Positions 8,154-64,000 of a stretch of DNA of 64,000 nucleotides are shown here, piece after piece. Under the pieces are notes generated by a model. The model saw nothing but the letters and a program-made list of their open reading frames with translations, was not told the origin of the DNA and made no database searches. The number at the start of each line of letters is the position of its first letter. Within the stretch, counting starts at the first letter, position 1. A program made the translations under genes and the position numbers. The DNA is taken from positions 224,001 to 288,000 of the IMG/VR virus record IMGVR_UViG_3300028048_000039; one strand, 5' to 3'. The stretch is from a virus (Duplodnaviria > Caudoviricetes).

Positions 8154-11100
8154 ATGAAACTTATTATATCAGAAGAACAGGAAAAGCATTTAGCAAAAAA
8201 TATATTATTAATTGAAAATCGTTTCGGAACAGCGAAGAAACGTGTTGCTGCTGTTATTGAACAATATTTTAACAAGGCACCGTGGCTTTATGAAACATAC
8301 CTTTCACAAACTAATCCTCGTGGATTGGACGGTTTAACGTATAAACGTGATGCTTTCCTCAATGACTTTTATCATGATTCAAATAGGAAGGAGTCGTCTG
8401 CTGCAAGATTGGCCCCATTGTTTGCTAGACTTGCATTTGAGGCTGGTTACGGAACGGTAGTAGCTGACGAAACTAAGATTAATAAGCTTAGGATGATTCT
8501 TAAGTATGTCTATGAAAATGCCGAGAGAATTGTACTGAATAAGGCTTTCCCAGAGGAGTCTCTTTACACAATGACCTATGATGAATTAAACAGGACCTAT
8601 GGCGAGGCGGTTGATAGACAAGAAGCCGAGGAAATGGAGAGGCTAAAAAATACCAAGTTTGCTGGTGAGTCAGATTATGAAATTCTTAGAGACGTTGATT
8701 ATAAGACGGCACATGAAATAGGAAACTACTCAAGTGACAAGGGCCGTGGCGCACTCTGCTACACCCAAAGTGATGGGACATGGAAAAGCTACAAGTCAAA
8801 TGATGTAAACAAAGTTTATATACTTTTGAAACCGGGATGGAAAGAAATGGAGCCAGTCCACGATAATGGTTCTACTGGTCCTGATGGCGATGCGTATGAT
8901 GCTTATGGTTTAAGTATGATTTATATCTTCGTTGGCCCGCCAGAGGTTGAGGGAGGGGTTGGTACATTAGCATACTGTAATGTTAGATGGAACCACCTTG
9001 CGACGTATGAAAAGGCCGAGGTGGACCATGCGCTTACAAAGGAACAAATTAGTAGACTTATTCAGGCTAACTTTGATAGCGTGTTTACGCCATATACAAC
9101 TGAAGAATTGGTTGCCAAGGGCTATGAACCAATTGACGAAGAAAAAATAATTAATGCTATAAAAGACGGGACAAAGAACACACATCGAGTTGGTGGTAGT
9201 GACTTATATACTGTCAGTGCCAGAAACCATAAAGAAAATATATATGATAGCAGAACGGATACCTTTGTTCTAAAGATGTGGGTTTATAGTATAAACAGTA
9301 TTAGTCTAGGCGAATCTGGTCAAAAATACATTCATATTGTCACGGATTCTAACAAGAGAAACCTCGTCGACACTAAGGGTAACTTACTATTTGGAAATCC
9401 TATTGACCCTGATGCATGGCCTATTCACATACAGACCCCGTATGGCTCCTCTACTAGTAATCTTATTCAGGTAATATATAGGTTAGGAGACCATGTTAAA
9501 TTTAATGTATTTAATCTTGGTACCAATTCTTTCTTATTTAGCCAAAAGAACGGAATGTTATTGCCAGATGAAGTAGCAATTAAGAACAACGGTTATGTAA
9601 CATACATATTAAAAACCGAAGACGGCATGAAACTTGGCGCTGTGGACATAAATGGTGAAGAAGTTGAAGTTGATACTGACTTTATCATGGATAATTCGAA
9701 AGAAATTGGTCGTGACGGTAACCTCATTGCTGTTAGATATGCTGGAGTATCTAATATTTTTGACAATAGTGAAGGACGTTTCTACTTTGATACTTGGGTT
9801 AATAATGTAAGCTTGTTTGATAAAAGTGACTTAGGTGAAACCTGTTATGTAATAACAGAAGCGGTTGGTGATAGAAATCGCCATAATTTAGGTTTCGTTG
9901 GTGGAAGAACATTATTCCCGATGGATGATAAGAGTGTTTGGGCTGATGGTTATGGGCGTTTATACGGAAGGAATGTAATAGCATTTTACTTTAGGGATGG
10001 AGCAGAAGAAGGTTATTGGAACCATGAAAATGGTTTCAAGATGTTAAGGGATATAGCAGATAATGTAGAAGAATTGAAATACTATTATCATGACGCATTT
10101 GTTTATGAACAGACTCCGAATTTATTGATATTAACGGAAGGAGATAATTCGTATAAGATTTTTAACAAGACCACTAAGACGACCTTTGAACGTGGAAGAT
10201 GGTTTGACATTGTAAGACCATTCAAACATAACGAAAATTATCTTTGGGCCGCTGATTGTGATAATTATGGGCATTTCATTGACAATGATATGAATTCTGT
10301 CTTTGGTAGTTACGTCTGGATAGATGATACTAGGACATTACAAGGCTTTACTCATGCAGTAAATGATAGTCCAGAAAATGATTTACACATATTAGTTGAT
10401 TATAACTTTAAACCTTTATTCGGAAAAGTAGATAATCAAAGAACTTGGTCAACTACTTTTAAAAAGTACAATGATTATACCGTCGTGATAGAGGTGGATA
10501 GTAAGTTTAATGTAATTTACGGTGGTAGGAAACTCTTATTTGGCGATGTTGATAATATAGATAATTGGGCAACCAGCGTATCTTTATTCAATGGTGCTCA
10601 GGAAGTTAGTGCTACTTTCGAGAATGGTCAGCATAAAGTATATAATTTATCTAGTGGTAGTCAGTATGATGTTAATAAAGAGTCATTGACAAATAGATTT
10701 AACGTTTTGAAAACACTTAATGATGGTAGGTTTTCTATAATATCATTAAAAAATGACCCTAAGGCGGTTAATATATATGATGCAGAAAATAACAGGATGG
10801 CATTAGATACATTTTTCACAAAGGCATTCTTGAAATTTGCTGGAAATGGTGTAATTGTCTTACTGTCTGAAGGTGAGGAAGGGGGTAGTTTTTATAGTAT
10901 GTACAACTTGAATGCCAATAAATTATATGCTACTCAGGGAATTAAGAAGTTCAAAAGGGTTGTTGGCGGAAATAATTGCTTAATTGTGTTCATAACGGAG
11001 AATCCTAGATACACATCCTTTAACGTCATTGACTTTAGGAGGGGACCAGAGTTTTTCTTGGATTATCCATTAACTATCAATGGGCAGTCAGCATATTACA

Positions 11101-12203
11101 AATCAAAGAATGAGTTAGGCTTCAATCTATGGCGAAACAGTACTAAATATAAATATATTTTCAGTTTAACCGAAGGTATAAAAGAACTCAACGGGTCAAC
11201 ACCGCAGAACACCGACGATGATGAGCCAGAACCACTATTTGAAGGGAAGAAGCTCGTAATTTCTAAGGACCAGGAAAATTATCTCATTGATAAGTTAAAT
11301 GAAGAGGTTTATCAAATGCCGGTTCCTAAGAAGGCAAATAAGCCTTATTGCATAAATCCTGAGAAAGTGCTGATTGTTAAGAAGTTCCTTGATAATACAT
11401 TTACGAAACATGATTATGAGAAGATAGGTCCTAATGGGCTTCCAACTATAATTAAGATTGTTTCAATGAACGCAAGCAATGGTGAGCCATTGAAGTATAT
11501 GTATCAGGACCAGCTCTTAGACCTCTTAATTGACAAGTTCCAGAAGATGTTTCTAGATGTTGATGAAAGACAAAGCTTCCTCCAGCAAGTGATGAATGAT
11601 TGGTTTGGGGACAAGATAAGCGCTTATGGCGGTCTTTCAGTTAATAGCCTCAATGAAATAACCTCAAAGGAAGTTACGGATGAGGCTAATAACGCTAATG
11701 TAGAACCAACCGACCCTCAATTAGAAGCAGGAAACTACAAGAAAGGACACATCTCTATCAAAGGAATGAGGATTGCGATAGAAAACCCAAAGGGGAGTAA
11801 GAGAAGCTATGTAGATAAAGATGGTAAGAGGAAATATAATGTAATGAAGAACCATTATGGCTACTTTAATGTGACAAAGGGAAAAGACGGTGATGCAGTT
11901 GATGTATTCCTTGGTCCAAATGTCGAGGATTTTGAGACGGTTTATTGCATTGACCAAAAGAATTTCCACGGTGACTTTGATGAAACAAAGGTAATGCTTG
12001 GTTTCAAGTCAAAAGAAGCCGCTAAGAAGGCTTACTTGAGGAATTATAGCCCAGATTGGAGAGGTTTTATGTATATTACTGCGGTTTCAATACCAGTATT
12101 TAAGAAGTGGCTCTACAGGGGAAGGAAGCAGAGAATCCCATTTGCTAAGTATGTAGAGATTAAGAAGAATAAGATAAGGGAAATTAATAAGGCAGTTAAG
12201 TAA
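8154..12203 (+). CDS. Polyvalent virion-cargo polyprotein: leader, RWNH domain, beta-repeat region, internal leader, unknown domain, C-terminal InPase-like domain
   Basis: MKLIISEEQ..LIE leader; YDAYGLSMI..RWNH; internal KKLVISKDQ..LNE; C-terminal NYKKGH..ENPKGS..HYGY..DGDAVDVF..FDETKVMLGF. Confidence 0.75.
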   Translation: MKLIISEEQEKHLAKNILLIENRFGTAKKRVAAVIEQYFNKAPWLYETYLSQTNPRGLDGLTYKRDAFLNDFYHDSNRKESSAARLAPLFARLAFEAGYGTVVADETKINKLRMILKYVYENAERIVLNKAFPEESLYTMTYDELNRTYGEAVDRQEAEEMERLKNTKFAGESDYEILRDVDYKTAHEIGNYSSDKGRGALCYTQSDGTWKSYKSNDVNKVYILLKPGWKEMEPVHDNGSTGPDGDAYDAYGLSMIYIFVGPPEVEGGVGTLAYCNVRWNHLATYEKAEVDHALTKEQISRLIQANFDSVFTPYTTEELVAKGYEPIDEEKIINAIKDGTKNTHRVGGSDLYTVSARNHKENIYDSRTDTFVLKMWVYSINSISLGESGQKYIHIVTDSNKRNLVDTKGNLLFGNPIDPDAWPIHIQTPYGSSTSNLIQVIYRLGDHVKFNVFNLGTNSFLFSQKNGMLLPDEVAIKNNGYVTYILKTEDGMKLGAVDINGEEVEVDTDFIMDNSKEIGRDGNLIAVRYAGVSNIFDNSEGRFYFDTWVNNVSLFDKSDLGETCYVITEAVGDRNRHNLGFVGGRTLFPMDDKSVWADGYGRLYGRNVIAFYFRDGAEEGYWNHENGFKMLRDIADNVEELKYYYHDAFVYEQTPNLLILTEGDNSYKIFNKTTKTTFERGRWFDIVRPFKHNENYLWAADCDNYGHFIDNDMNSVFGSYVWIDDTRTLQGFTHAVNDSPENDLHILVDYNFKPLFGKVDNQRTWSTTFKKYNDYTVVIEVDSKFNVIYGGRKLLFGDVDNIDNWATSVSLFNGAQEVSATFENGQHKVYNLSSGSQYDVNKESLTNRFNVLKTLNDGRFSIISLKNDPKAVNIYDAENNRMALDTFFTKAFLKFAGNGVIVLLSEGEEGGSFYSMYNLNANKLYATQGIKKFKRVVGGNNCLIVFITENPRYTSFNVIDFRRGPEFFLDYPLTINGQSAYYKSKNELGFNLWRNSTKYKYIFSLTEGIKELNGSTPQNTDDDEPEPLFEGKKLVISKDQENYLIDKLNEEVYQMPVPKKANKPYCINPEKVLIVKKFLDNTFTKHDYEKIGPNGLPTIIKIVSMNASNGEPLKYMYQDQLLDLLIDKFQKMFLDVDERQSFLQQVMNDWFGDKISAYGGLSVNSLNEITSKEVTDEANNANVEPTDPQLEAGNYKKGHISIKGMRIAIENPKGSKRSYVDKDGKRKYNVMKNHYGYFNVTKGKDGDAVDVFLGPNVEDFETVYCIDQKNFHGDFDETKVMLGFKSKEAAKKAYLRNYSPDWRGFMYITAVSIPVFKKWLYRGRKQRIPFAKYVEIKKNKIREINKAVK

Positions 12204-12205
12204 AT

Positions 12206-63736: not shown

Positions 63737-63833
63737 ATCTTCACGTTTTTTCCCAATTCGATAGCAATATATAAAAAAAATACTAGAAAAACAAACTTTT
63801 AAGACTATTTATGTAGAAAAATAGGCCTAAGAG

Positions 63834-64000
63834 ATGAGAGTTGCAATAAATGAAAACGACATAAGACGAATGGTGAGTGAGTGTGTGAGATTATTGACTG
63901 AAGACAGAGAAGGAAAGAATATAAATCTTGCAAGAAAGTTCCTTGAAACGAGGGGTATTGATGACTTAGAGAGAAGACAAGAGATACTTGATGATGTTCG
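63834..64000 (+). CDS. 5' part of another leader-bearing cargo protein, paralogous to the N-terminus of the 18640 polyprotein
   Basis: Late motif at 63805; MRVAINENDIRRMVSECVRLLTE-DREGKNINLARKFLE versus IIKE-SREGKNIAKARHYLE. Confidence 0.75.
   Translation, partial: MRVAINENDIRRMVSECVRLLTEDREGKNINLARKFLETRGIDDLERRQEILDDV

What the first reader, a model, noticed from the sequence alone, without database searches (positions are those of the whole stretch)
8154..64000. Shared capsid-targeting leader plus (L/I/V)xE cleavage code on about ten unrelated cargo proteins
Seen: proteins with unrelated bodies start with a similar 14-26 aa leader ending in hydrophobic-x-E. They are MKLIISEEQEKHLAKNILLIE (8154), MKAKKLSRQHIIKE (18640), MKVRRIIITNKQLNE..INE (27116), MKIILNEQQFNRLVTEEVMISVLNE (44306), MKKKRIIKESHIRKMVKECVQLLTE (45053), MKISIKEKDVRKMVNECLNVILE (46116), MTLFEDICLDLLLE (49708), MLISEEKLKNIIAESIAEELDE (62126) and MRVAINENDIRRMVSECVRLLTE (63834). 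All sit in CTATTTAT-driven units. Similarity between paralogs begins right after the E (E|SREGKNI in 18640 vs E|DREGKNI in 63834; E|NRFGTAKKRV in 8154 vs E|NRAQTARKRV in 46116). Known: T4 gp21 cuts after (L/I)-x-E, and T4 internal proteins use a short cleaved capsid-targeting sequence. A gp21 homolog is at 29408, and the MCP has LLRE|A. Inference: this is a portable tag that loads a diverse enzyme arsenal into the head for injection with the DNA.
Basis: partly seen in the sequence, partly recalled or inferred. Interest (0 to 1): 0.88.

Follow-up and report, generated by a model that had tools for sequence, protein, structure and literature searches.

The report
Capsid-loading tag on jumbo-phage proteins
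Twenty late proteins of this uncultured 345-kb rumen phage carry the same ~25-residue peptide, which ends in the cutting motif of the phage's T4-type head protease, so it is most likely an address label that loads them into the capsid, as in phage T4 but on a larger scale; no protein data confirm this yet.

Summary
A profile built from the leaders finds exactly 20 copies in the 344.6-kb genome (E < 3e-4; the next hit has E 0.32). Sixteen are N-terminal, three C-terminal and one internal. In the window, 8154, 44306, 45053, 46116, 62126 and 63834 belong to the family. 18640 and 27116 have other short leaders that still end in I-x-E. 49708 is unsupported.

The bodies are not all unrelated: 8154, 18640, 45053, 46116 and 63834 share a ~300-aa domain. 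About ten other carriers genome-wide are unrelated to it.

All 20 carriers lie in units led by CTATTTAT, the late promoter (p = 2e-11). The head protease is 31% identical to T4 gp21. The capsid protein's L-R-E60|A aligns with T4's known cut at E65|A. In 36 homologs of 46116 the leader varies from 4 to 45 residues, yet [L/I]-x-E always precedes the conserved body.

The tag occurs in six related giant phages and in more than 4,300 metagenomic protein clusters, often two or three times per protein. It is absent from T4 and two cultured relatives.

Best reading (about 0.6): a T4-like capsid-targeting, protease-removed tag. Packaging and cleavage are not shown. An earlier follow-up in this scan (e1-5656672) reached the same reading for this genome, and similar tags were noted on other phages.

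The parts
8154..8216 (+). Tag (divergent variant, 21 aa, ends L-I-E|N) on the 1349-aa polyvalent protein
   Evidence: HMM E 7e-8; late promoter 22 nt upstream
8154..12203 (+). Cargo candidate: N-terminal ~320-aa family domain plus C-terminal InPase domain (a polyvalent-protein type)
   Evidence: PF18823 E 1e-48; paralogy with 45053 and 46116; InPase polyvalent proteins are predicted to be virion-packaged (PMC5512222)
18640..18681 (+). Short 14-aa leader ending I-K-E|S. Not a member of the tag family.
   Evidence: No HMM match; similarity to 63834 starts about 4 residues before the E
18640..24639 (+). 1999-aa protein with two copies of the ~300-aa family domain plus WG repeats
22519..22527 (+). 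Internal L-T-E1296|N junction in front of the second domain copy; candidate internal cut site
   Evidence: same boundary motif as in the 36 homologs
27116..27193 (+). Divergent 26-aa leader ending I-N-E|E on the first gene of the protease-scaffold-capsid operon
   Evidence: No significant HMM match; boundary kept in an ortholog with a ~134-aa leader
29408..30139 (+). Prohead protease, T4 gp21 family
   Evidence: phrog_207 E 1e-41; 31% identity to T4 gp21; two short motifs (..LNHP.. and ..SSRGLG..), which I take from memory to hold the catalytic His and Ser, are identical in both proteins
30269..32146 (+). Putative scaffold/core protein: helical ends around a ~300-aa acidic tract. N-terminal L-R-E|E is kept in orthologs.
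   Evidence: Position between protease and capsid gene
32180..34204 (+). Major capsid protein, gp23 family
   Evidence: phrog_138 E 1e-65
32351..32359 (+). Predicted capsid maturation site L-R-E60|A
   Evidence: Aligns with L-T-E65|A of T4 gp23; L-S-E|A in three orthologs
44306..44380 (+). Tag (25 aa, ends L-N-E|S) on a 243-aa muralytic protein (44306-45037)
   Evidence: HMM E 4e-7; glucosaminidase-like; orthologs keep the tag, and three carry a lysozyme-like domain instead
45053..45127 (+). Tag (25 aa, ends L-T-E|E) on a 359-aa family-domain protein (45053-46132)
   Evidence: HMM E 7e-12
46116..46184 (+). Tag (23 aa, ends I-L-E|N) on a 320-aa family-domain protein (46116-47078)
   Evidence: HMM E 2e-11; AF2 gives helix 7-22, a break at 23-24, then the next helix from 25; 36 homologs
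62126..62191 (+). Tag (22 aa, ends L-D-E|S) on a 153-aa ORFan (62126-62587)
   Evidence: HMM E 8e-8; promoter 20 nt upstream
63834..63902 (+). Tag (23 aa, ends L-T-E|D) on a 696-aa protein that runs off the window
   Evidence: HMM E 3e-12; promoter 21 nt upstream
49708..49749 (+).
   Evidence: No HMM match; N-terminus conserved across the supposed site in paralogs and an ortholog
8124..8131 (+). CTATTTAT late-promoter motif. Others that lead carrier units are at 18610, 27090, 43376, 48208, 62098 and 63805.
   Evidence: the same motif precedes tail fibre, sheath, tape measure, portal and terminase genes

Best explanation
The ~25-residue module is a capsid-targeting tag. It has a short hydrophobic-x-hydrophobic start, a nearly invariant Glu, and a helix with a hydrophobic stripe, and it carries three spaced [I/L/V]-x-E motifs.

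Proposed steps:
1. Carrier genes are transcribed late from CTATTTAT promoters, together with the head and tail genes.
2. The tag docks the protein to a component of the assembling prohead core. Which component is unknown.
3. Once the shell closes, the gp21-type protease cuts after [L/I/V]-x-E at the end of the tag, and probably inside it. This frees the cargo, just as the same protease trims the capsid protein at L-R-E60|A.
4. The cargo stays in the head and probably enters the cell with the DNA.

Candidate cargo includes a polyvalent InPase protein, a cell-wall hydrolase, a family of ~300-aa domain proteins and many small ORFans.

What is shown: the tag family and its portability; its late-gene context; the protease and the homologous capsid cut site; conservation of the [L/I]-x-E boundary.

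What is inferred: binding to the core, cleavage, retention in the virion and ejection.
For: 1. The family is statistically clean: 20 copies at E < 3e-4, next hit at E 0.32.

2. Selection acts on the peptide, not the DNA. Half of the identical residues between copies use different codons (448 of 893), and nucleotide identity between copies is at most 0.74 (0.48-0.74 among the closest pairs).

3. The tag is portable. About ten carriers are unrelated in sequence. At the conserved locus after the portal gene, orthologs keep the tag and linker but carry either a glucosaminidase-like or a lysozyme-like domain.

4. All carriers are late genes: 19 of the 19 scored (the twentieth, 46116, lies in the same operon) are in CTATTTAT-led units, against 108 of 369 genes overall (Fisher p 2e-11). 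That motif also precedes tail fibre, sheath, tape measure, portal and terminase genes.

5. The protease is 31% identical to T4 gp21. The capsid protein's L-R-E60|A aligns with T4 gp23 L-T-E65|A and is kept as L-S-E|A in orthologs.

6. In 36 metagenomic homologs of 46116 the leader is 4-45 residues long, but Glu is invariant and P3 is always L or I, directly before the conserved body. Of 302 tags in 150 metagenomic proteins, 270 end in hydrophobic-x-E.

7. AF2 places the site in a break between the tag helix and the first helix of the body.

8. The tag is conserved across the clade. Five related jumbo genomes hold 5-15 copies each, LR756508 holds 8, and T4 and two cultured relatives hold none.

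9. Cargo types fit packaged effectors. InPase polyvalent proteins are predicted to be virion-packaged (PMC5512222).

10. There is precedent. T4 Ip proteins share only an N-terminal packaging leader (PMC12373910; PMC9958956).
Against: - There are no proteomic, structural or genetic data for this uncultured phage or any relative.
- The docking partner is unidentified.
- The tag has no sequence similarity to the T4 CTS, so the link to T4 is by analogy.
- The hydrophobic moment of the helix is only modestly above shuffled controls (0.32 vs 0.23).
- C-terminal and internal copies, and proteins with two or three copies, have no precedent in T4. They could instead point to a structural or self-association role.
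- A cut motif upstream of non-N-terminal copies is only modestly enriched in the wide sample (36% vs 23%). It may partly be a relic of fused tandem genes.
- [LIVM]-x-E is common anyway, at 2 per 100 residues.
- Conserved Glu residues could serve binding rather than cleavage.
Confidence: 0.62

Rival explanations
1. The module is a self-association or core-building helix. Tagged proteins zip to each other, or form an internal body, and the tag is a permanent structural element that is not removed. The hydrophobic-x-E pattern would simply reflect helix composition.
For: Many proteins carry two or three copies, at either end or inside. Three ~815-aa paralogs carry it at the extreme C-terminus, where a cut at the tag's end would not remove it. 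The hydrophobic positions are spaced 3-4 apart, like a coiled coil.
Against: In homolog families the leader length varies 4-45 residues, while the [L/I]-x-E directly before the body is invariant. That is the pattern of a processing site, not of a structural helix. Some family members and the second domain of 18640 keep the site without any tag. This rival still places the proteins inside the head, so it differs from the best explanation only on cleavage.
Confidence: 0.15
2. The module is a recognition peptide for some other partner, not a capsid signal. Candidates are a modifying enzyme, a chaperone, or DNA (as in a ribbon-helix-helix or antitoxin-like N-terminus).
For: Eight of 40 tags give weak hits to PF25734, a 'RelB-like antitoxin' model (best E 0.001). 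A strand-then-helix layout resembles the first half of a ribbon-helix-helix. An earlier scan case (e1-127136) re-read a shared phage leader as an enzyme recognition site.
Against: All PF25734 scores are below the curated cut-off (17 bits against 27), and only the first half of the model is matched. The tag sits on 700-1350-aa enzymes and on a muralytic protein. It is exclusively late. It ends in the head protease motif. I did not look for a co-occurring modifying enzyme.
Confidence: 0.08
3. The shared start is a promoter-plus-gene-start cassette spread by recombination for expression reasons, with no function as a peptide.
For: Most N-terminal copies follow a CTATTTAT promoter at 14-60 nt. Tagged small genes sit in tandem arrays with similar upstream sequence.
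Against: The C-terminal and internal copies have no promoter. Half of the identical residues use different codons, and DNA identity between copies is low. Five N-terminal carriers sit inside operons without a promoter of their own.
Confidence: 0.04

Closest known systems
Capsid targeting sequence (CTS) of phage T4 internal proteins (Ip1-3 and the variable Ip proteins of T-even phages), removed by the gp21 prohead protease
   Same: A short N-terminal peptide is the only thing shared by otherwise unrelated proteins. It ends in the gp21-type L/I-x-E motif. The phage has a gp21 homolog and a homologous capsid cut site. Genes are late, and some sit in a variable cluster of small genes (genome 181.8-187.7 kb), like the T-even ip loci (PMC12373910; PMC9958956).
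   Different: There is no sequence similarity to the T4 CTS. The tag is ~25 residues rather than ~10, with three spaced h-x-E motifs. There are about 20 carriers rather than three or four, including 700-2000-aa multidomain proteins. The tag also occurs at C-termini, internally and in tandem. The host is Bacteroidales, not enterobacteria. Nothing has been tested experimentally.
Propeptides of head and ejection proteins of giant phages phiKZ, 201phi2-1 and SPN3US, cut by a gp21-like protease at (S/A/G)-x-E
   Same: A jumbo phage in which many internal head proteins are trimmed after x-x-Glu. Paralog families of internal proteins exist, and some propeptides are short at 20-24 residues (PMC10052503).
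   Different: Those propeptides are mostly 111-254 residues and are not one shared portable sequence. P3 is Ala in SPN3US, but Leu/Ile/Val here.
N-terminal packaging signal of phage P1 DarB
   Same: A ~30-residue N-terminal signal is sufficient to send a very large anti-restriction enzyme, or a reporter, into the capsid (PMC9024508). Here too the tag heads giant multidomain proteins.
   Different: The P1 signal is described for one protein and is not a family-wide tag.
Polyvalent proteins of phages and conjugative elements (Iyer et al. 2017)
   Same: The 8154 product has the InPase domain typical of phage polyvalent proteins, which are predicted to be packaged and injected (PMC5512222). A SprT-like peptidase gene follows it.
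   Different: That work defines cargo domain architectures, not a shared loading tag. Most carriers here are small ORFans.

Membership tests
T4-type capsid-targeting / propeptide system | Phage encodes a gp21-family (S77) prohead serine protease | tested here: met
   phrog_207 E 1e-41; 31% identity to T4 gp21, with two short motifs identical in both that I take from memory to hold the catalytic His and Ser
T4-type capsid-targeting / propeptide system | One short terminal peptide shared by proteins with unrelated bodies | tested here: met
   20 profile hits; about ten bodies unrelated by blastp, Pfam and PHROGs; domain swap behind the same tag
T4-type capsid-targeting / propeptide system | Tag ends in the protease's cleavage motif, the same motif used in the major capsid protein | tested here: met
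   Capsid L-R-E60|A aligns with T4 E65|A; invariant [L/I]-x-E before the body in 36 homologs; 270 of 302 tags end in h-x-E
T4-type capsid-targeting / propeptide system | Carriers expressed late with the head genes | tested here: met
   By promoter motif only: 19 of the 19 carriers scored (the twentieth, 46116, is in the same operon) are in CTATTTAT-led units, p 2e-11. There are no expression data.
T4-type capsid-targeting / propeptide system | Sequence homology to the T4 CTS | tested here: not met
   The tag profile finds nothing in the T4 genome at E <= 0.05. The relation is functional analogy, not homology of the tag.
T4-type capsid-targeting / propeptide system | Tag is sufficient for packaging, is cleaved off in proheads, and the cargo is present in virions and ejected | not testable with these tools
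   Uncultured phage; no proteome.
PF25734 RelB-like antitoxin | Score above Pfam's curated cut-off (27 bits) | tested here: not met
   Best score in the genome is 17 bits; 8 of 40 tags match at E 0.001-1 and only over the first half of the model
Polyvalent proteins (InPase-containing) | InPase domain within a large multidomain phage protein encoded near virion genes | tested here: met
   PF18823 E 1e-48 at residues 1189-1320 of the 1349-aa product of 8154; PHROG hits to DarB-like and minor head proteins

The most novel reading that the evidence does not exclude
The module is a position-independent address cassette that destroys itself. It works at the N-terminus, at the C-terminus or between domains. 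It carries three protease sites, so it is chopped into ~8-residue peptides once loading is done. This lets the phage fuse tagged genes into polyproteins that the head protease resolves into separate cargo pieces inside the capsid. With more than 4,300 protein clusters in rumen and gut metagenomes, it would be the largest capsid-cargo system described, and a ready-made label for finding injected anti-defence proteins of Bacteroidales phages.
Probability: 0.3. Interest if true: 0.78.

Novelty: new variant of a known kind. Interest (0 to 1): 0.6.

Why it matters
If the tag does what T4's CTS does, one 25-residue profile flags the whole set of proteins that a large, uncultured clade of rumen and gut Bacteroidales jumbo phages ships into the host with its DNA. 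Such proteins are the first to act on infection and are prime candidates for anti-defence and host-takeover functions, yet most of them here are ORFans. It would also show that T4-style cargo loading is older, more widespread and more flexible (any position, polyproteins, 2000-aa cargo) than the three or four proteins known from T4. It could also supply a new loading tag for packaging foreign proteins into phage heads.

Tried and rejected
- Complex prediction: tag (40 aa, alignment A4) against the scaffold's N-terminal 60 and C-terminal 281 residues. The verdict was 'no answer' (score 0.00), so it is not evidence either way.
- Fold of the shared ~300-aa domain (AF2 mean pLDDT 88.9). There was no convincing match in PDB by Foldseek (best E 1.3) or by VIA-align wide (best Z 5.4). 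BFVD gave only weak PcfJ-like rows (E 0.003-0.3, TM about 0.2). Function left open.
- Scaffold N-terminus as a tag homolog. By eye it has a similar h-L-x-E-S-V-K..L-x-E run, but profile scores are below zero. Rejected as evidence.
- Short N-terminal h-x-E leaders as a second class. The enrichment among late genes disappears once true tags are removed, so no claim is made.
- tblastn of a 30-aa tag against 50,697 deposited phage records: no match.
- The search for related loci with the tag alignment or a multi-tag protein: failed or empty.
- A degenerate DNA pattern for one 12-residue tag variant gave only 6 viral contigs, all from the same rumen/gut sample series. It also gave one 287-kb contig filed as a rumen Bacteroidales MAG, which carries an array of tagged small genes.
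- Strong amphipathicity claim: rejected, since only 1 of 40 tags exceeds the 95th percentile of shuffles.

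
Full report
**Setting.** The window is bases 224,001-288,000 of a single 344,580-bp viral contig, with GC about 37%. It encodes a T4-superfamily head module:
- prohead protease, 29408-30139 (phrog_207, E 1e-41);
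- major capsid protein, 32180-34204 (phrog_138, E 1e-65);
- large terminase, 37089-38966;
- portal, 41256-43373.

The nearest deposited capsid proteins are only 40-44% identical: an uncultured 484-kb phage, Microcystis phage Mel-JY01 and Flavobacterium phage immuto. IMG/VR holds 47 loci with portal proteins 51-70% identical, several on contigs of 200-390 kb. Earlier notes of this scan place the phage in rumen or gut Bacteroidales. One tag-bearing 287-kb contig is filed as a rumen Bacteroidales MAG.

A regular expression and then a profile HMM built from 13 N-termini, iterated once, give 20 hits in the six-frame translation of the whole genome. Their E-values run from 2e-13 to 3e-4, and the next hit has E 0.32.
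- Sixteen copies start within a few residues of the initiator Met.
- Three sit at the extreme C-terminus of three tandem ~815-860-aa paralogs just upstream of the window (genome 216373-223856).
- One is internal, in a 217-aa DUF3008 protein (genome 105883-106536, minus strand).

In the window the members are 8154, 44306, 45053, 46116, 62126 and 63834. 18640, 27116 and 49708 do not match, even at very lax thresholds.

The consensus over 40 copies from this phage and relatives (alignment A5) is:
- a basic start;
- I-x-[I/L]-[N/T/S]-E, with Glu in 39 of 40;
- a helix with hydrophobic positions 3-4 apart;
- [V/I]-[A/S]-E, with Glu in 32 of 40;
- [V/L/I]-L-x-E, with Glu in 28 of 40.

Each tag therefore holds two to four hydrophobic-x-E motifs. 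That is 10.5 per 100 residues, against 2.0 in the proteome. Selection is on the peptide: of 893 identical residue positions across all pairs of copies, 448 use different codons, and nucleotide identity between copies is at most 0.74 (0.48-0.74 among the closest pairs).

**Are the bodies unrelated?** Only partly. Blastp within the proteome shows that a ~300-aa domain is shared by:
- 8154, 45053 and 46116 (37-43% identical from residue 1);
- 63834 and genome 181797;
- the 1999-aa product of 18640, which has two copies;
- the three C-terminally tagged paralogs.

Eleven proteins therefore share this domain; ten of them are among the 20 carriers, and the eleventh (18640) has no tag. An AF2 model of this domain is confident (mean pLDDT 88.9), but it matches no solved fold convincingly. 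Its alignment has invariant Cys, Asp, His and Trp-Asn-His positions that suggest an enzyme.

The other carriers are unrelated to it and to each other (apart from one pair, genome 184434 and 314984):
- a muralytic protein (44306; glucosaminidase-like);
- the DUF3008 protein;
- a 749-aa ORFan;
- six small ORFans.

The best single piece of evidence for portability comes from the locus after the portal gene. Nineteen orthologs of 44306 keep the tag and a hydrophobic linker. Sixteen carry the glucosaminidase-like domain, and three carry a lysozyme-like domain in its place.

**Late-gene context.** CTATTTAT occurs 20 times in the window against 5.0 +/- 2.4 expected. It occurs 78 times in the genome against about 30 expected from base composition. 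Fifty-six of these lie within 120 nt upstream of a co-oriented start, mostly at 14-35 nt. The motif precedes tail fibre, sheath, tape measure, portal, terminase and adaptor genes, so it behaves as the late promoter. Nineteen of the 19 scored carriers are in units led by this motif, and 46116 lies in the same operon as 45053. Overall, 108 of 369 genes are in such units (Fisher p 2e-11).

**The protease and its code.** The 29408 product is 31% identical to T4 gp21 over 178 residues. Two short motifs, which I take from memory to hold the catalytic His and Ser, are identical in both proteins. BLASTP of the capsid protein against T4 gp23 aligns L-R-E60|A with L-T-E65|A. T4 gp23 is known to be cut between Glu65 and Ala66; this is established knowledge, not tested here. 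Three orthologs have L-S-E|A at the same place. The putative scaffold (30269-32146) keeps A-L-R-E near residue 45 in its orthologs.

The strongest argument for processing comes from 36 metagenomic homologs of 46116. Their leaders range from 4 to about 45 residues. Some are full tags, some are shortened tags, and some are unrelated sequences. In all 36, a Glu with Leu or Ile at P3 directly precedes the first conserved residues of the body.

The same boundary, L-T-E1296|N, stands in front of the second domain copy inside the 18640 product, with no tag before it. The ortholog of 27116 in a related genome has a ~134-residue leader instead of 26, but keeps I-x-E at the boundary. In the AF2 model the tag is a separate helix (residues 7-22, pLDDT 65-70). 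It is broken at residues 23-24 from the first helix of the body.

**Distribution.** The tag profile finds 5-15 copies in each of five related genomes of 222-393 kb. It finds eight in the more distant 484-kb LR756508. It finds none in T4, Flavobacterium phage immuto or Microcystis phage Mel-JY01. Against 1.84 billion cluster representatives it finds 4,321 proteins at E <= 0.001. None of ten top hits looked up bears a name other than 'hypothetical protein' or reaches a Pfam cut-off or a named PHROG.

The top 150 hits are biased towards multi-copy proteins, because scores add up. They hold 124 N-terminal, 152 internal and 27 C-terminal tags, and 270 of 302 end in hydrophobic-x-E. Internal copies often keep a Met-Lys-Lys just before the tag. 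Tagged small genes also occur in tandem arrays with similar upstream sequence. Multi-tag proteins are therefore best read as fusions of neighbouring tagged genes.

In this clade, 12 of 15 non-N-terminal tags have hydrophobic-x-E followed by Ser or Asn a few residues upstream. In the wide sample the enrichment is modest (36% vs 23%, p 8e-4), and it may partly be a fusion relic. I give it little weight.

**Interpretation.** The data fit the T4 model: late proteins are addressed to the prohead core by a short peptide, and the prohead protease then removes that peptide. In T-even phages the Ip proteins share nothing except such a leader (PMC12373910). The CTS carries foreign proteins into the head, and how it finds the core is still called mysterious (PMC9958956). 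Giant phages of the phiKZ/SPN3US group trim many head proteins after A-x-E (PMC10052503). P1 DarB has a 30-residue N-terminal packaging signal (PMC9024508). InPase-bearing polyvalent proteins like the 8154 product are predicted to be packaged and injected (PMC5512222).

What differs here is the tag itself: it is about 25 residues long, has three Glu motifs and shows no similarity to the T4 CTS. Also different are the number and size of the carriers and the use of the tag at any position. I found no paper describing this.

**Rivals.** Four alternatives were weighed.
- A permanent self-association helix. This would explain the multi-copy and C-terminal forms, but not the invariant boundary under variable leaders.
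- A recognition peptide for another partner. This is suggested only by sub-threshold hits to PF25734.
- A promoter-plus-start cassette. Codon divergence and the promoter-less copies argue against it.
- Chance. The profile statistics exclude it.

**Limits.** There is no protein-level evidence. The docking partner is unknown. The late class is inferred from a promoter motif alone.

**Relation to earlier notes of this scan.** A follow-up on a neighbouring window of this genome (e1-5656672) reached the same reading, with about 19 carriers. First-reader notes had already listed the C-terminal copies (e1-5656684) and an echo of the tag inside the 8154 product (e1-5656719). I can see that echo by eye near residue 1030, between L-F-E|G and L-N-E|E, but the profile does not detect it. 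Similar but unrelated tags were reported on other uncultured T4-like phages.

Noticed in passing
window 12206-13021 (+): The gene directly after the 1349-aa polyvalent protein encodes a SprT-like zinc peptidase domain (PF10263, E 1e-9). Such peptidases often accompany or sit inside polyvalent proteins.
   Followed up: no
window 44306-45037 and its orthologs in loci L017-L062 (alignment A6): At the same locus after the portal gene, the tag and a hydrophobic linker are kept, while the catalytic domain is either glucosaminidase-like (16 loci) or lysozyme-like (L053, L058, L060). This is a domain swap behind a constant N-terminal module.
   Followed up: partly
window 30269-32146 (+): The putative scaffold has a ~300-residue tract made almost only of Asp, Glu and Phe in short repeats, between a helical N-terminus and a well conserved coiled-coil C-terminus.
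   Followed up: no
window 26556-27047 (+): A 163-aa product that starts with proline-rich, Met/Asn/Asp repeats, encoded just upstream of the head-core operon.
   Followed up: no
window 16682-18241 and 18279-18518 (+): A 519-aa protein and the 79-aa ORF after it start with nearly the same ~35 residues. This looks like a truncated duplicate or an alternative gene start.
   Followed up: no
window 18640-24639 (+): The 1999-aa protein is built from two copies of the ~300-aa family domain plus WG beta-repeats (PF14903, seven stretches). The second copy is preceded by the family's L-x-E|N boundary.
   Followed up: partly
genome 216373-223856 (just upstream of the window; locus L012 6373-13856): Three tandem paralogs of 814-859 aa share their own conserved ~26-residue N-terminus that starts M-(W)-(V)-L-N-E-S. 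They carry the tag at the C-terminus instead of the N-terminus.
   Followed up: partly
L113 and L114 (contig CACYXI010000001.1, 286,648 bp): A contig deposited as a rumen Bacteroidales MAG carries an array of small tagged genes. It is probably a jumbo phage of this clade binned as a bacterium.
   Followed up: partly
genome-wide, e.g. window 8124, 18610, 27090, 43376: The late-promoter candidate CTATTTAT sits 14-35 nt before most late-gene starts. It also precedes an HNH homing endonuclease gene at genome 312671-314317.
   Followed up: partly
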